Below, piece by piece: positions 14,937-47,445 of a stretch of 64,000 nucleotides of DNA. Source of the DNA: a virus. Its lineage: Duplodnaviria > Caudoviricetes. Each line of letters starts with the position of its first letter. Positions within the stretch are counted from its first letter, which is position 1. A program made the position numbers and the translations under genes. The notes under the pieces were generated by a model that made no database searches, was not told the DNA's origin, and saw only the letters and a list, made by a program, of their open reading frames with translations. The stretch lies in the IMG/VR virus record IMGVR_UViG_3300029288_000001, positions 128,001 to 192,000 of that record; one strand, given 5' to 3'.

Positions 14937-15272
14937 ACCAATGACAGAAGAAGAATTTCAACAAAGTCTAATTAACATGGTCAATAAAGGCACGCTTTAT
15001 TACGAAATGAAGAACGGCGAACCAGCCTTTCAATTAACGGAAGAAGGAATAAAAGAATACGAGAGATATAAATATTACGAGAAACATATAAAACCTCTAG
15101 GAGGATTGAAACATCTCATAGGAAAGAAATGCCCAATATGTAGTAGAGTCTCCACAGAAACTAACGATGGTATCTACGACGAAAAGACCGACGAGGTAAT
15201 CTGTTATGGTTGTTGGTTTGAATACAAAAAGAAAAAAGGGTATACAAAAAACTACGATTTTGAGGAAAGACT

Positions 15273-15827
15273 ATGATCGATAAGAAAAAAGAGCGATGGT
15301 TGTTTTGTTGCACCTCGGGCATGATCCGCAGTCCCACGGCGGCAAGAATGTTTGAGAACGAAGATTGCGACACGATGTTTATAGGCTTAGAGTACAACGG
15401 TATATGGAAGGTAAAAGAACAGTTAGATGGACATATATCGTGGGCGACCAAGATCTTCGTGATGGAAGACGAGCAGGAAACTTTTCTTTTATCGTTATTT
15501 CCCGATCTCGAAATCTTTAATTTAAATGTTCTCGATACATACGAGTGCGACTCTCCCGCGTTGAAGGAAATCCTCCAAGAGAGAATGCGTAACTGCGGCG
15601 TAGAGGAAAAATATCCAAAGGAGATGTTGGAAGAAGCTATGAAAGGAAAGAGCGCTCCGTATGTGCCTTTAAAGGTGTTGGAATCGAAGCGCGATCTCTG
15701 CGACTGGACAGACCGAATGGACGCGCTCGTGATTCCCTTGTTAAGATTTCCTAGCCCTACTTACGCCGCTTATATGAATTTAATGCGCGAACTAGAGAAA
15801 TTCTTATTAAAAAGAGATCTTATTTAA
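15273..15827 (+). CDS. Low-molecular-weight protein tyrosine phosphatase-like protein
   Basis: LFCCTSGMIRSPTA (Cx5RS loop) and WATKIFVME. Confidence 0.8.
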   Translation: MIDKKKERWLFCCTSGMIRSPTAARMFENEDCDTMFIGLEYNGIWKVKEQLDGHISWATKIFVMEDEQETFLLSLFPDLEIFNLNVLDTYECDSPALKEILQERMRNCGVEEKYPKEMLEEAMKGKSAPYVPLKVLESKRDLCDWTDRMDALVIPLLRFPSPTYAAYMNLMRELEKFLLKRDLI

Positions 15828-16515
15828 GAAAAAAACATCGTATTAGATCGTTAATAAACACGCATAAAAACAACTTTATTTTATTATTAGTTATGACTAA
15901 TACAACTAAAGAAGATTTAAAATTAAAAGAAATAAAAGAGTTTCTTGTCGTAGTAGATAAATACAAAAAAACATTAGAGAACTACGATCTCGCGGGATTA
16001 GAAGAGTTAGAGAAGAAATTGCAGATCTTAGAATCTATGCGGTGGAGTTTAAATAAACCTATCCATAGAGTCTTGGGAGGCGTGGGATTAGATGAGGACG
16101 ACGAACTACCAATTCCTATACCCGAGCCTGCGATCAGTAAGGTAGACCGCATAGTTGCGAATCTAATCAACCCCAACAGCATACGGCGCCTCGCCGAAGG
16201 ATTAACGGGCGTTGCCGATAACCTAGACAAGAAAAAAGAGCCTAAACAATGAGCGAGTACGAAAACCTAAAAAACGAGTTCGAGCGGAAGGTAAAGGAGC
16301 TCCAAGAGAAATGTCCACATACTACTACGAAGTGGTATATGCACATGTGGGCGCCAGGGCATTTTAGCGGCGAGGATATATTAGTGTGCGAGAACTGCGA
16401 TAAGCACCTTGGAAAACGCCCTACCCAACGAACGAATTAATTACCTTTTTTTTAGTATATAAAGACAATTGTTATCAATGAATCCAGATTCATTTCTATT
16501 TTTATAGTTCAACTA

Positions 16516-16587
16516 TGGGAATGGAGGGATTTGAACCCTCGACCTCTCGGTCCCAAACCGAGAATCCTACTTCTGGACGACATTCCC
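16516..16587 (-). tRNA. tRNA-Pro(UGG)
   Basis: Acceptor GGGAATG/CATTCCC; anticodon arm CTCGG TT TGG GA CCGAG; T-arm GAGGG TTCAAAT CCCTC. Confidence 0.9.
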
Positions 16588-16598
16588 GTTGAACTAAG

Positions 16599-16672
16599 TT
16601 GAGGTAGAGGGAGTTGAACCCTCGCTGACCGCGTTATAAGCACGGCGCTCTACCAAACTGAGCTACACCTCA
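16599..16672 (-). tRNA. tRNA-Ile(UAU)
   Basis: Acceptor TGAGGTG/TACCTCA; anticodon arm CCGTG CT TAT AA CGCGG; canonical D and T arms. Confidence 0.9.
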
Positions 16673-16680
16673 GTATTAAG

Positions 16681-16820
16681 CGCGGCGGGGAGGATTTGAA
16701 CCTCCGTGCCATTACGGCAAACTCGATTTCGGTTCTCGGAGCGAGAATAGCAATCTCGGATTCAATTGTCGGGAATTGACAATTCCAGTCGAGCTGAATA
16801 CCAGACTATCGTACCGCCGC
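16681..16820 (-). tRNA. tRNA-Ser(GGA) with a 55-nt anticodon-loop intron
   Basis: Acceptor GCGGCGG/CCGCCGC with G73; long variable arm; CTCGA CT GGA A [55 nt] A TCGAG. Confidence 0.85.
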
Positions 16821-16838
16821 ATTTTATCCTTGAAGTCA

Positions 16839-16908
16839 AGCCAGCGAGGAGAATTGAACTCCCGTGTAGAGGTCTGCAGCCTCCTGCTTACCGCTAAGCT
16901 ACGCCGGC
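16839..16908 (-). tRNA. tRNA-Cys(GCA)
   Basis: Acceptor GCCGGCG/CGCTGGC with U73; anticodon arm GGAGG CT GCA GA CCTCT. Confidence 0.9.
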
Positions 16909-16918
16909 ATAGTAGTAG

Positions 16919-17502
16919 TGCAGAGAGCAGGATTCGAACCTGCGGGTAGGACCTTGCCAACTAGATTTCTAACGGAACGCTTTGAGTTTCGCTTTCTTAG
17001 TTTCGCGTAAATATCGAATAGCAGAAAATAAAATCATAGGATTTTCGTATGCTCTCCCAATCATTTGATTACAACTATTACATAATAATCCTCTGAATCT
17101 TTTTGTTCTATGATCGTGATCGACATGGAAGTTTCCTTTTCCTTTAGGTGTTTTTGTTCCACAAATTGCACATCTACGGTTTTGTCCATCCAAAATTTTT
17201 TCAAATTGTTCGATTGTCATACCATAGCATTTTTTCAAATTATTTTTTCTATCTTTTTCTTTTTGATGATTCATAGGATTTTTTCTATAGTTTCTTTGAT
17301 ATTTTGAATGACACGATTTACAATCTCGTTGATAACCATCTTTTTCCCCTTTGTTCTTATGAAACTCCGAAATGCTTTTCATTTCTCCACATACGATACA
17401 TTTTTTTTCATTCATAATAATTCCTATTCAATATTTATTTCGCTCTTAACCATCCAGGTAAAGGATTTAAGTCTAGCGCGTTGACCGCTCCGCCATCTCT
17501 GC
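16919..17502 (-). tRNA. tRNA-Leu(UAA) split by a 499-nt intron (16967-17465)
   Basis: 5' exon GCAGAGA...CTAGA CT TAA A (17502-17466); 3' exon A TCTAG, long variable arm, GCAGG TTCGAAT CCTGC TCTCTGC A (16966-16919). Confidence 0.9.
16969..17415 (-). CDS. Intron-encoded endonuclease VII-family (His-Me finger) endonuclease, probably homing
   Basis: CxxC...CxxC N-terminal zinc motif, YGMTIEQF, CAICG, HVDHDH and RGLLCNSCN. Confidence 0.9.
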   Translation of the reverse strand: MNEKKCIVCGEMKSISEFHKNKGEKDGYQRDCKSCHSKYQRNYRKNPMNHQKEKDRKNNLKKCYGMTIEQFEKILDGQNRRCAICGTKTPKGKGNFHVDHDHRTKRFRGLLCNSCNQMIGRAYENPMILFSAIRYLRETKKAKLKAFR

Positions 17503-17689
17503 GTGGTATAATTAATAGGATAAAAATAAGAAGTAGTCTCTTAACCAATGCAACGCCATTACGGCAATGGCGACGAACAACTACTTATTGAGAGAGACAG
17601 CATGATTACACGATCAAATTATAATATATAATAATTGATTAGTTTCTATTTAAACTTTTTTATCAATCGTTTTATAAGAAAGAATCGGT

Positions 17690-17716
17690 GGGGCTCAGCC
17701 ATAGCTTCATTGCCCC
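17690..17716 (-). ncRNA. Kink-turn hairpin
   Basis: GGGGC AAU GA AGC UAUG GCU GA GCCCC fits the K-turn consensus. Confidence 0.55.
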
Positions 17717-17737
17717 TTTCAAAATAGGTTAATGTGA

Positions 17738-17844
17738 TGGTGCCAGGAGATGGATTTTAACCACCAATCTCCGCGATGCGCTTTTCGCGGGGTCTTATCT
17801 TCGTCGCCAAAGCCTTTGTACTTCGGGCGTTAAACGATCCCAGC
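17738..17844 (-). ncRNA. Aberrant tRNA-like RNA with encoded CCA
   Basis: Acceptor GCTGGGA/TCCTGGC-A-CCA; T-arm GGTGG TTAAAAT CCATC; 10-nt anticodon loop; about 30-nt hairpin inserted in the D-loop. Confidence 0.65.
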
Positions 17845-18116
17845 GTCAAGAATGGTCGGAGGGAACAGTCGATGAATCCGTTAACAGCTCTGTGTCTGCG
17901 TATCGCGACGAGCAGAGCCACACAAAACCCTTACTCGCCCAATCATTCTGAGAGCGTCTCCTCCGTTGATGGGCGTAGCAGAAGCGTAAGCCGTGGGCGC
18001 AACTCCACAGACTCGGCGCAATACCTTTCAGCCACAAGAGCCGTTAAGTCCTTACGCCATTTCCATTAGTCAACGATAGACGCTTCGTAACAGAAATGCT
18101 ACTCGGTAATTACCTA
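17845..18116 (-). ncRNA. Candidate structured non-coding RNA of about 270 nt
   Basis: GC-rich; long helix TTAACGGCTC..TGTG..CTG / CAG..CACA..GAGCTGTTAA encloses further hairpins; TTTAAATA box upstream. Confidence 0.45.
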
Positions 18117-18187
18117 GTATATAGTAAGATCGTAGGAATATTTAAATATTGTTGTTAAAAAAAGAATAAAAATTAGAAAAAAAGGTC

Positions 18188-18340
18188 TTATAGAACGCTC
18201 CACATAGGCTGCGGGTTCTGAATTACCACCGCACCGCACATAGGACACCGCACATCGGAAGATAGAACCAGAAACATGTAGTCTTCCTGATTACCGCAGA
18301 AGGTTCCGCATTTCGGGCAATAGATCGGGGTTCCGTTCAT
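18188..18340 (-). CDS. 50-aa zinc-ribbon protein
   Basis: MNGTPIYCPKCG...RCPMCGAVV, with its own TTTAAATA promoter. Confidence 0.7.
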   Translation of the reverse strand: MNGTPIYCPKCGTFCGNQEDYMFLVLSSDVRCPMCGAVVIQNPQPMWSVL

Positions 18341-18394
18341 AATCTATAGATCGGTTTTTTTCTATTTAAAGATTGTTATTATAGATAAAATAAG

Positions 18395-18592
18395 ATGCCG
18401 TTGTTCTACCAGCTTAAACTATACCCATTGATCGCGTGATATCTGGGTGATCAAGCCTGGACGGTGCGCGATTCAATCCAATACTACGATCCCACGCTTG
18501 TTATAGAGCGATCAACTCCATGGGGCGCAAGATCTAGCTCGTATCGTGCCAATTAAGGGGGTAGTTGGGTCTCGAACCCACTCCTCGCGGCT
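18395..18592 (-). ncRNA. Circularly permuted tRNA-like RNA
   Basis: The 3' half (GCCGC..GTGGG TTCGAGA CCCA..TACCC) precedes the 5' half (GGGTA TA GTTT AAGCTGGTA GAAC A ACGGC) by about 130 nt. A TATA box lies upstream and a T-run downstream. Confidence 0.7.
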
Positions 18593-19521
18593 AATCATTA
18601 GTAGATTCCTCTCTTTATAAATCTTCTTGTTAACCTTTTTATAATTGATTAACCCATTATACGGTGTAGATTAGAAAAAATAAATAAAAGTGATCAATAA
18701 AATGGAAATGGAAACGAAACCTGTATTTATAGAGTTTGCCGTGTTGTTTTGGACGGAGGAATGGAGCCAGAAGTGCCCGACCTGTAAGGGGGACATCAAG
18801 TACCACGACTGGTATGTGGAGGAATGGAATGACGACCGCGAAAGCGGCGAAGGAAGCGACGACTATTGTATTAAATGCGGATTAGAGTTAATCAAAAAAT
18901 CCTCGGAAGAACAGACCTTCGAGAGCCGCCCCCATATTATAAGCGAGAAAGTGGAGAAAGTCCAGAAAGCCGCCAAGGAAGCGATGGAAAAGATCTTGGA
19001 AAAAGGTAGAACCTTAGAAGGCTCGCTCGCGAACAGCGTAGGCGGCATATCCGACGAAGAGAGACCGCTCGTGTTGTTGATGGCACTAATGAACAATAAG
19101 AGCTCGCCAGAGCGGTTATCTAAGTTGTTCGAAGCGACTAAAAACATGAAAATAGACGTAGAAACGCTCGGAGAAGAGTTTGAAAAAGCGTTCTCTCAAG
19201 AATAAGAAAAGTAGGTGATTAAATTTGGAAAACGAGAAGGAAGCGAAGAAAATACTAAAACAATGTGGACTCACGCCAGACAACATCCAGCGGTTCGCGG
19301 AAGACATGGCAGCGAAAGCGTGCTCCACGGCGAGCGATGGTGCGTGGGCGCAATGTAAGGTCAATCCCAAGGAGTGTTATTCCGCGGTGTTGGAGGACGT
19401 GAAGCAGCGTATAGACCGCGAGCTAAAAGAAGTTAAAAAACTAATTAAATAATACTCTTTTTTTTAGAATTTCTATTTTACCCTTACTTTTTTATAGTCT
19501 AACGATCTATTATATAGTTAT

Positions 19522-36585: not shown

Positions 36586-36685
36586 ATAGATCACTCTTTA
36601 TATGGTATATACTACGCTTTATACTTTAATATACTTGATCCTAGGACATTTTTATATAGTTCTAAGGGTTAGTATTATTAATAAT

Positions 36686-38089
36686 ATGGACTTAAAGAAA
36701 TGCGATAGAACGCTCCAGCCGAGCCAGATTGGAACGCTACGCGCAATAGGAGAAGTAGCCTCAGAGCTAGGAGAAAGGTGCTATTTAGTGGGAGGAGCCG
36801 TAAGGGACTGTTTACTTGGAAAACCCAATAAAGACCTCGATATCGTGTGCTCGAACTCGGAACGCGTGGTTACGGAGCTCGCGTCTAGGTTAGAAAAACA
36901 AACGGGAAAGAAACCCACGGTTGCGACCTTCAAGAAGTTTGGCACGCACCAGATCAAAATGCTTGGAGAAGAGGTAGAGTTCGTAGACCCACGGAAGGAG
37001 ACCTACGCGTATCAGTCTATTAAACCAGAGGTATCGAAAGGAGACTTTACGGACGACGCGATGCGAAGGGATTTTACCGTAAACGCGTTATATCTTGGAA
37101 TACAGAAAGACGACTGGATGAAGGTCGTAGATTTAACGGGAAAAGGAATGGAAGACTTAAAAAGTAACTTACTTCGCACGCCGTTAGATCCTGAGGTGAC
37201 GTTCCGAGACGATCCTACGAGGCTATTAAGGTTATCTAGGTTTAACGCGTGTAAAGGGTTCGATATTGAACCTACTACGAAGGCAACTGCTAAGAAATCC
37301 TCTCCCGAGGTTAAACGCGTGCCGTTCGAAACGATCAAGCAGTTACTGGAAGACAGTATAACTTGTAACGGTTATGTGCGGTCGCTGGACGAGCTAGGGT
37401 TCTTGAAATTGATCGTTCCCGAGTTCGATCTCTTGAAAGGATTGAACCAAGGACCACACCACAGATACGACGCCGCAGAGCACACGCTTAAAGTTATAGA
37501 CGCTCTTCCAAAAGACTATAAGATGAGATTAGTAGGTCTATTACACGATCTCGGAAAATACGACGCGAATAAAGCGTTCTTTAACCTCCATGGACACGAG
37601 GAGTATTCTACCAATAAGGCTATTGAGATCGCCGACCGATTGAAACTCTCCAACGAAGACAAGAAGTATATAACGCACATGGTCCAGCACCACATGGACT
37701 TACTGCATTTAATGAACGAAGTTAAGCCAGAAATTAACAAGAAACCCAGCACGAAGGCTCTCCGCACTTTCATGAACAAGAACGAAGGTTACGAGAACGA
37801 TCTCATCGAGTTTGCCCACGCCGATATCGAAGCGACGGGCTATCCGAGACAAGACGATCATAGAAAGCTGGACATCATCCAGACGCTTATCCGCGACGAA
37901 AAAGCGAAGATGGGAGAGAAGCCGTTTAAGTTGCAGATCTCGGGAAAGGATGTAATGGACGCTCTTGGAATAAAAGAAGGTATGGAAGTCGGGAAGGCGC
38001 TTAGCGCGTTAAAGGATAAAGTGATCGAAGGGTCTATAGAGAATAAACGCGAGGATTTATTAAGATCGTTAAAAGATTTAAAGAAGTAA
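36686..38089 (+). CDS. cca: Class II CCA-adding tRNA nucleotidyltransferase with HD domain
   Basis: VGGAVRD..LG...DLDIV, RRDFTVNA, DDPTRLLR, flexible loop RKETY...P.V, and HD motif LLHDLGK. Confidence 0.9.
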   Translation: MDLKKCDRTLQPSQIGTLRAIGEVASELGERCYLVGGAVRDCLLGKPNKDLDIVCSNSERVVTELASRLEKQTGKKPTVATFKKFGTHQIKMLGEEVEFVDPRKETYAYQSIKPEVSKGDFTDDAMRRDFTVNALYLGIQKDDWMKVVDLTGKGMEDLKSNLLRTPLDPEVTFRDDPTRLLRLSRFNACKGFDIEPTTKATAKKSSPEVKRVPFETIKQLLEDSITCNGYVRSLDELGFLKLIVPEFDLLKGLNQGPHHRYDAAEHTLKVIDALPKDYKMRLVGLLHDLGKYDANKAFFNLHGHEEYSTNKAIEIADRLKLSNEDKKYITHMVQHHMDLLHLMNEVKPEINKKPSTKALRTFMNKNEGYENDLIEFAHADIEATGYPRQDDHRKLDIIQTLIRDEKAKMGEKPFKLQISGKDVMDALGIKEGMEVGKALSALKDKVIEGSIENKREDLLRSLKDLKK

Positions 38090-38093
38090 TATT

Positions 38094-38573
38094 ATGGACA
38101 AAGCTAAGATGATAATGTTTATCGGAGTTCCTGCAAGTGGCAAGTCCACGGAGCGAAAGAACTACCCAAAGGCAGAGGTAATCTCGCCAGATGACATACG
38201 GAAAGAAATATTCCACATTCAGTCCGACGAGAAGGTCGAGCCACAGGTCTGGTCTATAGTCATGGATAAAATGGAGAACTGTTTAAAGAAAAAGAAAGAG
38301 TGCCTCCTCGACGCTACGAACTTAAAAAGCGAATATCGCCAGCCGTTTATAGACCTCGCCAAGAAATACCACGCGGACACGGAAGCCGTGATCTTCGATA
38401 TTCCCTACGCGGAAGCGTTAAAGAGAGACGCCGCGCGACCCAAGGGAAAGGTCGTAGGAAAGGAAGTCCTAGAAAGGATGTATAGTAATTATAAGGAGTT
38501 TCTTAAAAACACCTCCATAAACGATCTAAGGAAGGAAGGGTTTAAGTCTATTAAAATAAAAACTACGGAATAG
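38094..38573 (+). CDS. Polynucleotide kinase-like P-loop protein (AAA_33)
   Basis: GVPASGKST, ISPDDIR, LLDATNL and R...R lid. Confidence 0.85.
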   Translation: MDKAKMIMFIGVPASGKSTERKNYPKAEVISPDDIRKEIFHIQSDEKVEPQVWSIVMDKMENCLKKKKECLLDATNLKSEYRQPFIDLAKKYHADTEAVIFDIPYAEALKRDAARPKGKVVGKEVLERMYSNYKEFLKNTSINDLRKEGFKSIKIKTTE

Positions 38574-46515: not shown

Positions 46516-47445
46516 TCAACCATTATAAACATATATATACTCTAATAAAGTTCCCGTTTTTTTAGTTTTGATCATCTTCGCGATATTCTCCTTTGTTGGT
46601 TCTAGAACGAATTCCTTTCTTTTATTAGCTTTAGAATGCACCCATAAATGGCATCCGTGACACAATAAGATTAAATTACTTAACACGAGTCGTAGCGATT
46701 TGCATTCGTATCCAATAATGTGGTGCACATTTGGAAAGTGCTCGTCGTATTGATTTATTGATAGTATAGTAGGATTACCACAATGTTGGCACATACCATT
46801 GTAGCGTTGGTAGGTGATCCTCCACGCCTTCTTCCATTCTCGTCTATGCATAAAGATATCTCTTTCCTTACTTATTCCTCCTTTCCAATTATAATTTCTT
46901 GGACCACTTACAGATAGAGCGATCTTTTTTTTAGTTTCTTCTGTAGGGTGTTTTCCTTTATGAGCTTCAATTGCTTGTTGTGAAAGTCTTCTACCTTTAT
47001 TTGCTTTACTAATTTTTCGTTTTGTTTCTTCCGATAGTTTCTTTCCCTTAAGGCTTATACTATTTGCTTCACCAATTCTTCGTTTTGTTTCTTCCGAAGG
47101 ATGTCTTCCTTTATTACTTTCGCTTATCTTTCTTCTTGTTTCTTCAGATAAACGCTTACCCTTATGAACTTCTGACATTCTTTTCCTTATTTCCAATGAA
47201 GGGTGCTTTCCAGTATTTGCCTTAGCGATCTTTTTTTTATGTTCTTTAGATAAAATCTTACCAATATTTGCCTGTCTTAATTTTTCTCTTGTCTCTTTTG
47301 TAATCTCTCTTTTCTTTATATTCTCAGCCATTATTATTCTTTGTTTATCTTGTCTCTCTTTATTATTGGGGTCGCACCAGAATTTATGGACACCTAGATT
47401 ACTTGTTTTTCTAAACTCTCTTCCACAAAACTCACATTTAAACAT
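46516..47445 (-). mobile_element. Free-standing HNH homing endonuclease with zinc finger and NUMOD3 repeats
   Basis: FKCEFCG...H; repeated (H/L)SEETKRKIS..KG; NYNWKGG; CQHCG...VHHI...NLILLCHGCH. Confidence 0.9.

What the first reader, a model, noticed from the sequence alone, without database searches (positions are those of the whole stretch)
16919..17502. Protein-coding tRNA intron: endonuclease VII gene inside a non-ribozyme intron of tRNA-Leu(UAA)
Seen: a 499-nt insertion at position 37/38, of which 447 nt is the ORF, leaving no room for a group I or II core. The stop codon TAG (16969-16971) is part of the segment pairing with C32-U33, followed by the 3-nt AA|A bulge, so the stop doubles as a splice signal. 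Established: endonuclease-spliced tRNA introns are normally short and non-coding, and the classic coding archaeal introns are in rRNA and carry LAGLIDADG enzymes. Inference: a mobile tRNA intron spliced by host EndA, possibly translated from the excised circle and homing to intronless Leu alleles.
Basis: partly seen in the sequence, partly recalled or inferred. Interest (0 to 1): 0.85.

Follow-up and report, generated by a model that had tools for sequence, protein, structure and literature searches.

The report
Nuclease gene inside viral tRNA-Leu intron
A 225-kb virus of Asgard archaea carries a leucine tRNA gene cleanly split, at the classic intron position, by a 499-base insert that is almost entirely an intact DNA-cutting enzyme gene; it most likely is a protein-spliced, possibly mobile tRNA intron of a kind not described in print, but splicing is not shown and the splice motif is weak.

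Summary
On the minus strand, 17502-16919 is a well-formed tRNA-Leu(UAA) interrupted at 37/38 by 499 nt. Of these, 447 nt are an intact endonuclease VII-family ORF.

No group I or II ribozyme signal appears, even at E<=10. The genome is a complete 224.8-kb IMG/VR virus with MCM, Cdc6-like and RadA genes. Its RadA is 55-73% identical to Asgard RadA, so the host should supply a broad-specificity (alpha-beta)2 splicing endonuclease.

- The splice motif is relaxed (HBh'). It has a 5+1-bp exon helix, an AA|A bulge, a central helix with 3 of 4 pairs (U-U mismatch) and essentially no inner helix.
- This fold costs +4.9 kcal/mol against the best fold.
- No RNA data, no intronless allele and no second copy were found.
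- All 165 homologue loci checked hold free-standing genes, mostly in bacterial phages.
- The insert is compositionally foreign (GC3 23% vs 46%), so intact exons do not prove splicing.

I rate EndA splicing at about 0.55, a dead tRNA at about 0.3, and homing lower still.

This scan has already noted nuclease-bearing BHB tRNA introns (LAGLIDADG, PD-(D/E)XK) on other DNA. This one would be a new variant: a beta-beta-alpha-Me nuclease, in a virus.

The parts
17466..17502 (-). tRNA-Leu(UAA) 5' exon, nt 1-37 (acceptor, D arm, anticodon stem 5' strand, loop C32 U33 U34 A35 A36 A37)
   Evidence: Direct reading; ARAGORN -i
16967..17465 (-). 499-nt insert at 37/38, the putative endonuclease-spliced (BHB-type) intron
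   Evidence: No Rfam ribozyme hit. GC 31% against 41% for the genome.
17416..17465 (-). 50-nt intron leader. Its first ~25 nt have GC like the tRNA and the rest is AT-rich. AGGA lies 6 nt before the ATG. The segment GGUUAAG (intron nt 15-21) is fully complementary to loop nt 32-36.
   Evidence: Direct reading; folds
16969..17415 (-). Endonuclease VII-family (beta-beta-alpha-Me) nuclease gene, 148 aa. It has an N-terminal CxxC...CxxC zinc ribbon and the HVDH...N catalytic core.
   Evidence: PF02945 E 9.6e-22; PHROG 2633 E 1e-37. Conserved residues in alignment A1. Hpy99I 3fc3 E 1.2e-16 and T4 endo VII E 5e-12 by sequence. AlphaFold pLDDT 91.8; best fold matches Hpy99I, then T4 endo VII.
16919..16966 (-). 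tRNA-Leu(UAA) 3' exon, nt 38-73 (anticodon stem 3' strand, long variable arm, T arm, acceptor, A73). No encoded CCA.
16966..16972 (-). 3' splice-site motif. UUAG (16972-16969, including the TAG stop) pairs with A35, U34 (mismatch), U33 and C32. It is followed by the bulge A A | A38.
   Evidence: Direct reading; BHB scoring
17465..17471 (-). 5' splice-site region. C32-A35 is the 5' strand of the central helix, followed by A36 A37 | U. No adjacent inner helix follows (1 bp only).
   Evidence: forced-BHB fold +4.9 kcal/mol
17008..17021 (-). 3' arm of a 14-bp long-range helix, inside the AIRYL codons of the ORF. It pairs with 17424-17437 in the intron leader and so encloses the ORF.
   Evidence: Only weakly above chance: 22 of 1000 shuffles reach 14 bp, and the duplex energy is not significant.
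17521..17530 (-). TATA-like TTATTTTTAT, about 19-28 nt upstream of tRNA nt 1. It is a candidate promoter of the Leu-Cys-Ser-Ile-Pro cluster.
   Evidence: Direct reading; inference only
16516..16908 (-). Downstream tRNA genes, 7-17 nt apart on the same strand: Cys(GCA) 16839-16908, a candidate Ser(GGA) with a 55-nt insert 16680-16820, Ile(UAU) 16598-16672 and Pro(UGG) 16516-16587

Best explanation
This is an archaeal-type, protein-spliced tRNA intron carried by a virus of Asgard archaea. A nuclease gene that is usually free-standing and selfish has settled in it.

Proposed course of events:
- The tRNA cluster is transcribed from the TATA-like box upstream of tRNA-Leu.
- The host's (alpha-beta)2 splicing endonuclease cuts the precursor after A37 and before A38. 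The cut uses a relaxed bulge-helix-bulge (HBh') built from the anticodon stem, the AA|A bulge and the pairing of loop nt 32-35 with the last UUAG of the intron.
- The exons are then joined by host RtcB, or possibly by the virus's own kinase plus Rnl1-like ligase. The product is a tRNA-Leu(UAA) that reads the virus's commonest leucine codon.
- The intron RNA, or the precursor, serves as mRNA for a sequence-specific beta-beta-alpha-Me DNA endonuclease.
- By analogy with intron homing, that enzyme would cut intronless tRNA-Leu(UAA) genes in co-infecting relatives, or in the host, and so spread the insert.

Shown here: the anatomy, the lack of a ribozyme, the archaeal (Asgard-like) setting, the integrity of the nuclease, and the demand for the tRNA. 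Inferred: cleavage, ligation, translation and homing.
For: 1. The insertion is clean and sits at 37/38, and the joined tRNA is flawless.
2. Only 52 nt are non-coding, and no group I or II match appears at E<=10.
3. The virus is archaeal. It has MCM (E 1e-84), RadA (E 3.5e-89) and a Cdc6-like gene. Every named RadA hit is Asgard, at 55-73% identity and with the same N-terminal zinc finger. The best full-length hit lies in a cellular contig beside Arf, Roadblock and RING genes.
4. The virus encodes no EndA or RtcB of its own, so it must rely on the host. Asgard EndA is reported as (alpha-beta)2 with the L1 loop that allows HBh', hBH and BHL substrates (PMC5829648).
5. The HBh' elements are present: a 5 bp + G-U exon helix, a 3-nt bulge and 3 of 4 central pairs.
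6. The same virus has a DNA methylase gene split after DPPFFT by a 31-nt frame-shifting insert. That insert has a BHB of similar imperfection (H 3/4 with an A-C mismatch, a 6-bp exon helix), and removing it restores the frame.
7. UUA is the virus's most used Leu codon (36%). AUA and CCA, read by the neighbouring viral tRNAs, are likewise the top codons for Ile and Pro.
8. The ORF keeps all zinc and catalytic residues and folds confidently. It resembles the restriction enzyme Hpy99I over its full length, more than the junction resolvase T4 endo VII.
Against: 1. The strict hBHBh' motif is not met. There is a U-U mismatch in the 4-bp helix and a 1-bp inner helix. The BHB conformer is 4.9 kcal/mol worse than the best cloverleaf-constrained fold, which buries the 5' splice site in a local hairpin (CUUAA/UUAAG plus AUCC/GGAU).
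2. BHB-like scores of this level are common by chance in this AU-rich RNA. The case therefore rests on position, not on the motif.
3. The insert is compositionally foreign (GC3 23% vs 46%). It may be recent, so intact exons do not prove selection for splicing.
4. None of the 165 homologue loci has the gene inside a tRNA. The closest homologue (49% identity) is free-standing.
5. No intronless allele or second copy was found, so mobility has no direct support.
Confidence: 0.55

Rival explanations
1. Dead tRNA. A free-standing endonuclease VII-type selfish gene cassette recently landed in the anticodon loop of a dispensable viral tRNA-Leu gene. The RNA is not spliced, and the halves look perfect only because there has been no time to decay.
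For: - The insert is compositionally foreign: GC 31% and GC3 23%, against 41% and 46% for the genome.
- The family is free-standing in all 165 loci inspected and lives mostly in bacterial phages and prophages.
- The BHB is weak and is not the best fold.
- A syntenic relative (L187) has no tRNA cluster after the matching 63-aa gene within the ~800 nt left before its contig ends. That hints, weakly, that the cluster is dispensable.
Against: - The insertion is base-exact at the one position where archaeal introns normally sit (about 3.6% by chance).
- It also supplies the 3-nt bulge and the C32-G and U33-A pairs.
- Free-standing homing genes normally land between genes, not inside them.
- UUA is the virus's top leucine codon.
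- The host class is reported to cut relaxed motifs (PMC5829648).
Confidence: 0.3
2. A spliced intron, but the nuclease is not a homing enzyme. The gene merely resides in a safe harbour and serves the virus, for example in branch resolution before packaging or in host DNA degradation. Alternatively, it entered a pre-existing short intron of about 22 nt.
For: - T4 endonuclease VII, the founding family member, is a resolvase.
- Only one other, very divergent PF02945-like gene exists in the genome.
- The first ~25 nt and last ~40 nt of the intron have higher GC than the ORF.
- GUUA flanks the AT-rich cassette on both sides.
- A hypothetical 22-nt intron without the cassette would have a 2-bp inner helix, CC/GG (direct reading).
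Against: - The closest solved relative over both domains is a sequence-specific restriction enzyme, not the resolvase.
- Relatives behave as accessory 'extra' genes in phages (PMC8861465).
- The 4-nt flanking repeat is within chance.
Confidence: 0.25
3. A self-splicing (group I or II) intron, or an intron processed by virus-encoded enzymes rather than by host EndA.
For: - tRNA-Leu(UAA) is the classic host of a bacterial and plastid group I intron (established knowledge).
- The virus encodes a T4 Rnl1-like RNA ligase and an AAA_33 kinase next to a CCA-adding enzyme, which together form a heal-and-seal toolkit.
Against: - No Rfam group I or II hit appears even at E<=10.
- Only 52 nt are non-coding.
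- The classic Leu(UAA) group I intron sits at 34/35, not at 37/38.
- No viral RNA endonuclease for the cut was identified, and no EndA is encoded.
Confidence: 0.04

Closest known systems
Homing-endonuclease-bearing BHB introns of archaeal rRNA genes (LAGLIDADG enzymes such as I-DmoI, I-PorI; see PMC6125680, PMC4496867)
   Same: Both are long, ORF-filled introns with no ribozyme. [quoted passage not shown]
   Different: The host gene here is a tRNA, not rRNA. The nuclease is beta-beta-alpha-Me / endonuclease VII type, not LAGLIDADG. The carrier is a virus. The BHB is relaxed (HBh') rather than strict. Mobility and splicing have not been shown.
Canonical archaeal tRNA introns at 37/38 (review PMC4090602; relaxed HBh'/hBH motifs, PMC5829648)
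   Same: The position is the same. So are the anticodon-stem exon helix, the 3-nt bulge at the 3' site and the pairing of loop nt 32-35 with the intron's 3' end.
   Different: Those introns are tens of nucleotides long and non-coding. The review I searched mentions no ORF or homing for tRNA introns. This one is 499 nt and 90% coding.
I-Ssp6803I in the group I intron of Synechocystis tRNA-fMet; group I intron of tRNA-Leu(UAA) in cyanobacteria and plastids (own knowledge; PMC3984707 for bacterial group I introns)
   Same: A tRNA anticodon-loop intron that carries a homing nuclease gene, and the same tRNA species (Leu-UAA).
   Different: Those introns are self-splicing ribozymes in bacteria, and the Leu intron lies at 34/35. 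Here there is no ribozyme, the position is 37/38 and the setting is archaeal.
Free-standing endonuclease VII-like accessory genes of phages (e.g. gene 13.5 of T7-like phages, PMC8861465) and restriction enzyme Hpy99I (3fc3)
   Same: The protein family and fold are the same: a zinc ribbon plus a beta-beta-alpha-Me core. Identity is 33-49% to many phage and prophage genes.
   Different: All of those sit between genes, and 165 of 165 loci checked are not in a tRNA. Only this copy lies within an intron.
Earlier unpublished notes of this scan: LAGLIDADG or PD-(D/E)XK genes inside BHB introns of archaeal tRNA genes (e1-4506719, e1-4496392, e1-4819230, e1-2556437, e1-2559402, e1-4431290)
   Same: The design is the same: an archaeal tRNA gene split by a 350-700-nt ORF-filled, ribozyme-free intron.
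   Different: The nuclease family is different, those are cellular (mostly DPANN) genomes, and several had relatives showing presence or absence of the intron. I did not re-test those notes.

Membership tests
tRNA-Leu(UAA) | Cloverleaf with UAA anticodon, long variable arm, A73 and universal tertiary nucleotides after removal of the insert | tested here: met
   ARAGORN -i and direct reading. Stems are 7/7, 5/5 and 5/5. T loop UUCGAAU, GG in the D loop, U8, U33, A37 and A73 are present.
Archaeal endonuclease-spliced (BHB) intron | Host is an archaeon, or an archaeal virus, with access to EndA and an RNA ligase | tested here: met
   The virus has MCM, Cdc6-like and RadA genes. RadA is nearest to Asgard. 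The virus itself lacks EndA and RtcB. Asgard EndA type is taken from PMC5829648.
Archaeal endonuclease-spliced (BHB) intron | Strict hBHBh': two 3-nt bulges separated by a 4-bp helix and flanked by two helices | tested here: not met
   The central helix has 3 of 4 pairs (U34-U mismatch). The inner helix is 1 bp and the exon helix is 5 bp + G-U. The forced BHB is +4.9 kcal/mol against the constrained MFE.
Archaeal endonuclease-spliced (BHB) intron | Relaxed motif (HBh'): exon helix, intact 3-nt bulge at one site, central helix, with the other site in a loop | tested here: met
   The anticodon stem, the AA|A bulge and the C32-G, U33-A and A35-U pairs are present. The 5' site AA|U lies directly 3' of the central helix. 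Definition from PMC5829648.
Archaeal endonuclease-spliced (BHB) intron | Spliced RNA or excised (circular) intron observed | not testable with these tools
   The only run listed is a DNA run, the probable source sample. Laying its contigs gave nothing useful.
Mobile (homing) intron | Intron ORF encodes a site-specific DNA endonuclease | tested here: inconclusive
   The nuclease family and its intact active site are shown. It is closest to the sequence-specific Hpy99I. Its specificity is unknown.
Mobile (homing) intron | Sporadic distribution: intron-plus and intron-minus alleles of the same gene in relatives, or the same intron at the same site elsewhere | tested here: inconclusive
   No homologous tRNA-Leu was found in IMG/VR or JGI metagenomes. 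The one syntenic relative contig has no tRNA genes. 165 nuclease homologue loci hold no tRNA intron.
Endonuclease VII / beta-beta-alpha-Me family (PF02945) | Profile match above the curated cut-off, with conserved CxxC zinc ligands and the H-x-D-H...N catalytic motif | tested here: met
   77.1 bits against a cut-off of 23.6. C82, C85, H97, D99, H100, H102, C112, C115 and N116 are conserved in A1. The fold matches 3fc3 and 2qnf.
Group I / group II self-splicing intron | Match to ribozyme covariance models, and enough non-coding RNA for a catalytic core | tested here: not met
   No RF00028, RF00029 or related hit at E<=1 (15000-19500) or at E<=10 (16900-17530). Only 52 nt are non-coding.

The most novel reading that the evidence does not exclude
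A virus of Asgard archaea carries a truly mobile, protein-coding tRNA intron. Host EndA excises it through a relaxed BHB, restoring a tRNA the virus needs. The intron-encoded endonuclease VII/Hpy99I-like enzyme cuts intronless tRNA-Leu(UAA) genes of competing viruses, or of the host, to copy the intron in.

This would be the first beta-beta-alpha-Me homing enzyme in an archaeal-type intron and the first such intron in a virus. It would give a DNA-level route for tRNA introns to spread in the lineage closest to eukaryotes.
Probability: 0.25. Interest if true: 0.8.

Novelty: new variant of a known kind. Interest (0 to 1): 0.62.

Why it matters
How archaeal and eukaryotic tRNA introns are gained is an old open question. 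Nuclease-driven homing is documented for rRNA BHB introns, but I found no paper describing it for tRNA introns.

A tRNA intron that is almost entirely a nuclease gene would make that question directly testable. It sits at the canonical site, in a virus of Asgard archaea, whose splicing enzyme is the closest prokaryotic relative of the eukaryotic one. Three tests would settle it: one transcript, one recombinant EndA and one nuclease assay.

It would also show that a nuclease family typical of bacterial phages can colonise archaeal-type introns. And it would show that archaeal viruses lean on host RNA splicing for both tRNA and mRNA, as the split methylase gene in the same genome suggests.

Tried and rejected
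- **RNA evidence.** No RNA holder was listed. The only run is a landfill DNA metagenome that is probably the source. Laying its contigs showed only unrelated tRNA fragments and no joint.
- **Exon searches.** The intronless junction and the 3' exon gave 0 hits in IMG/VR. The T-arm plus acceptor pattern in JGI metagenomes gave 3 unrelated tRNA-Leu(CAG/UAG) genes.
- **Relatives through neighbouring proteins.** There were none in IMG/VR. One Logan contig (L187) is syntenic to genome 134173-144457 but has no tRNA genes. The representative search with the right-flank protein returned only the query itself and one 274-aa protein at 37% identity that I did not look up.
- **Host genome.** The Asgard contig L176 is not held for genome searches.
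- **Long-range helix.** The 14-bp helix enclosing the ORF looked striking, but 2.2% of shuffles reach that length and the duplex energy is ordinary. I give it little weight.
- **Second intron as a control.** The candidate tRNA-Ser(GGA) with a 55-nt insert was meant as a control for this virus's BHB style. Its central helix has only 2 of 4 pairs, its D stem is weak, and no better splice register was found. It was therefore not usable.
- **ARAGORN 'introns' in homologue loci.** Those in three Streptomyces and Sphingomonas loci are false positives with mismatched stems.
- **Flanking repeats.** UAAGA..GCGAAA and GUUA were considered as a target-site duplication. They are too short to count.

Full report
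**What is there**

Read on the minus strand, window 17502-16919 is a tRNA-Leu(UAA) gene in two exact halves.
- Nucleotides 1-37 (17502-17466) end with the anticodon stem strand CUAGA and loop CU-UAA-A.
- Nucleotides 38-73 (16966-16919) start with A-UCUAG.
- They continue through a long variable arm, a GCAGG/UUCGAAU/CCUGC T arm, the acceptor strand and A73.

Between the halves lie 499 nt (17465-16967). ARAGORN with introns allowed reports exactly this gene, while plain ARAGORN and Rfam miss it. Because the loop ends AAA and the intron ends GAA, three registers give the same product. Only 37/38 gives bulge-helix-bulge geometry.

The joined 85-nt RNA has perfect stems and the usual invariant nucleotides. 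The gene is first in a same-strand cluster, spaced 7-17 nt apart: Leu, Cys(GCA), a candidate Ser(GGA) with a 55-nt insert, Ile(UAU) and Pro(UGG). A TATA-like TTATTTTTAT lies about 19-28 nt upstream of nt 1 (direct reading; its role is inferred).

**The insert**

The ORF 17415-16969 fills 447 of the 499 nt, on the tRNA strand.
- It matches Pfam Endonuclease_7 at E 9.6e-22 and PHROG 2633 'endonuclease VII' at E 1e-37.
- Aligned with 21 homologues, it keeps the N-terminal CxxC...CxxC zinc ribbon. That fixes the first ATG as the start, not the M12 used by an automatic gene call.
- It also keeps the C82/C85, H97-V-D99-H100-x-H102 and C112/C115-N116 core.
- A profile search of solved structures puts the restriction enzyme Hpy99I first (E 1.2e-16, both domains) and T4 endonuclease VII second (E 5e-12).
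- An AlphaFold model (pLDDT 91.8) gives the same order by fold.

The protein therefore looks like an intact enzyme that cuts duplex DNA and may be sequence-specific.

**Not a ribozyme**

Only 50 nt precede the ORF and 2 nt follow it. Rfam with permissive thresholds shows no group I or II match. This holds at E<=1 over 15000-19500 and at E<=10 over 16900-17530.

**Whose genome**

The window is 128001-192000 of a 224,826-bp IMG/VR virus record with direct terminal repeats, rated complete.
- It encodes MCM (E 1e-84), a Cdc6-like AAA protein and RadA (E 3.5e-89).
- Every named RadA hit is Asgard, at 55-73% identity and sharing the N-terminal zinc finger.
- The best full-length hit sits in a cellular contig beside Arf, Roadblock and RING genes.

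An Asgard host is the reasonable inference. The virus has no EndA or RtcB of its own. Kaneta et al. report that Asgard archaea carry the (alpha-beta)2 EndA with the L1 loop. In Crenarchaeota this loop allows cleavage of relaxed motifs (HBh', hBH, BHL) (PMC5829648).

**The splice motif**

With cuts after A37 and before A38, the elements are:
- an exon helix of the 5-bp anticodon stem plus G26-U44
- a 3' bulge A-A|A38
- a central helix of C32-G16969, U33-A16970, U34 against U16971 (mismatch) and A35-U16972
- a 5' site of A36-A37|U
- an inner helix of a single C-G pair

This is not the strict hBHBh'. It fits the relaxed HBh' class. Forcing it costs 4.9 kcal/mol relative to the best cloverleaf-constrained fold.

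That best fold contains two local hairpins. The 5' one pairs loop nt 32-36 with intron GGUUAAG and buries the 5' site. The 3' one pairs CUAA with the terminal UUAG. Motifs of equal score are common by chance in this AU-rich RNA. The argument for an intron therefore rests mainly on the exact canonical position and clean boundaries (about 3.6% by chance), not on the motif.

One alternative reading is that each site is presented in its own half-motif, with CC/GG plus CUUA/UAAG around AA|U at the 5' site. This is inference only.

**Context that helps**

The same virus has a DNA methylase gene whose N-terminus (…VDLVYIDPPFFT) is cut off by a 31-nt frame-shifting insert.
- Removing genome 68341-68311 restores one frame into the N6_N4_Mtase domain.
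- The insert is flanked by a 6-bp exon helix, bulges AA|A and AU|C, and a central helix with 3 of 4 pairs.
- It also has an inner helix of 1 pair, 2 mismatches, then 6 pairs.

This was first noted by another reader (e1-5496324). It suggests that this virus already depends on host BHB splicing and that imperfect central helices are tolerated.

Codon use also argues that the tRNA is wanted. UUA is the commonest Leu codon in viral ORFs (36%). AUA and CCA, served by the neighbouring tRNAs, are likewise the commonest for Ile and Pro.

**Context that hurts**

The insert is compositionally foreign: GC 31% and GC3 23%, against 41% and 46%. It may be a recent arrival, so intact exons are weak evidence of selection.

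The nuclease family is otherwise free-standing.
- None of the loci I scanned has the gene inside a real tRNA. These were the 80 best IMG/VR loci, the 80 best loci in GTDB species genomes (all bacterial) and 5 Logan/ENA/NCBI loci.
- The three ARAGORN 'introns' among them are false.
- The closest homologue (49% identity) stands alone in an unrelated AT-rich contig.

I found no intronless or intron-bearing homologue of this tRNA-Leu anywhere. The only syntenic relative (L187) has no tRNA genes on its contig. No RNA data exist.

**Verdict**

The best explanation is a host-EndA-spliced, relaxed-BHB tRNA intron that houses a selfish beta-beta-alpha-Me nuclease gene (about 0.55). A recently disrupted, unspliced tRNA gene is the main rival (about 0.3). 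Homing is plausible but unsupported, and a ribozyme is essentially excluded.

In the literature I could search, nuclease genes in BHB introns are described for rRNA, not tRNA. This scan's own earlier, unpublished notes already list LAGLIDADG and PD-(D/E)XK examples in tRNA genes of other archaea. I therefore class this as a new variant of a known kind, with a new nuclease family and a viral carrier.

Noticed in passing
window 36602-38573 (+) and genome 35550-36617 (-) (L005:15550-16617): A possible tRNA repair or 'heal-and-seal' toolkit. A class II CCA-adding enzyme (PolyA_pol head, E 9e-25) is followed directly by an AAA_33 / polynucleotide-kinase-like P-loop protein (E 2e-22). A T4 Rnl1-like RNA ligase (PF09511, E 1.7e-16) lies elsewhere. 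No tRNA_lig_CPD match was found. The toolkit could repair anticodon-nuclease damage or join EndA-cut exons.
   Followed up: partly
genome 68311-68341 (-) = L007:8311-8341: A 31-nt BHB-type insert splits a DNA methylase gene after DPPFFT, and removing it restores the frame. The same gene also holds a LAGLIDADG/Hom_end segment (a likely intein) and an Mrr-like domain.
   Followed up: partly
window 16680-16820 (-): A candidate tRNA-Ser(GGA) with a 55-nt insert at 37/38. The acceptor, T arm and variable arm are good, but the D stem is weak and the BHB central helix has only 2 of 4 pairs. As in tRNA-Leu, the 5' splice site lies inside a local 7-bp hairpin. Rfam does not call it.
   Followed up: partly
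L025:1444-2043; L098, L099, L106 around 1900-2020: In bacterial phage and prophage loci, endonuclease VII homologues end 10-25 nt before an intact tRNA gene on the same strand. This is tRNA-Leu(UAA) in a T7-like phage contig and tRNA-Ser(UGA) in three Acidobacteriota loci. It may hint that this nuclease family targets tRNA genes.
   Followed up: no
window 17741-17844 (-), genome 75115-75213 (-), genome 19049-19131 (-): Sub-threshold tRNA-like elements (Rfam tRNA 24.5, 23.9 and 16.1 bits) with large insertions. The one at 75115-75213 sits inside a long flanking helix. Other readers noted some of these.
   Followed up: no
window 46516-47445 (-); genome 41191-41322 (-): More selfish-type nucleases: a free-standing HNH plus NUMOD3 protein (309 aa), and a second, very divergent endonuclease VII-like ORF (155 aa).
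   Followed up: no
genome 64497-65894 (-) = L007:4497-5894: The viral RadA carries the Asgard-specific N-terminal zinc-finger extension and is 60% identical over its full length to a cellular Asgard RadA. This suggests a fairly recent capture from the host lineage.
   Followed up: partly
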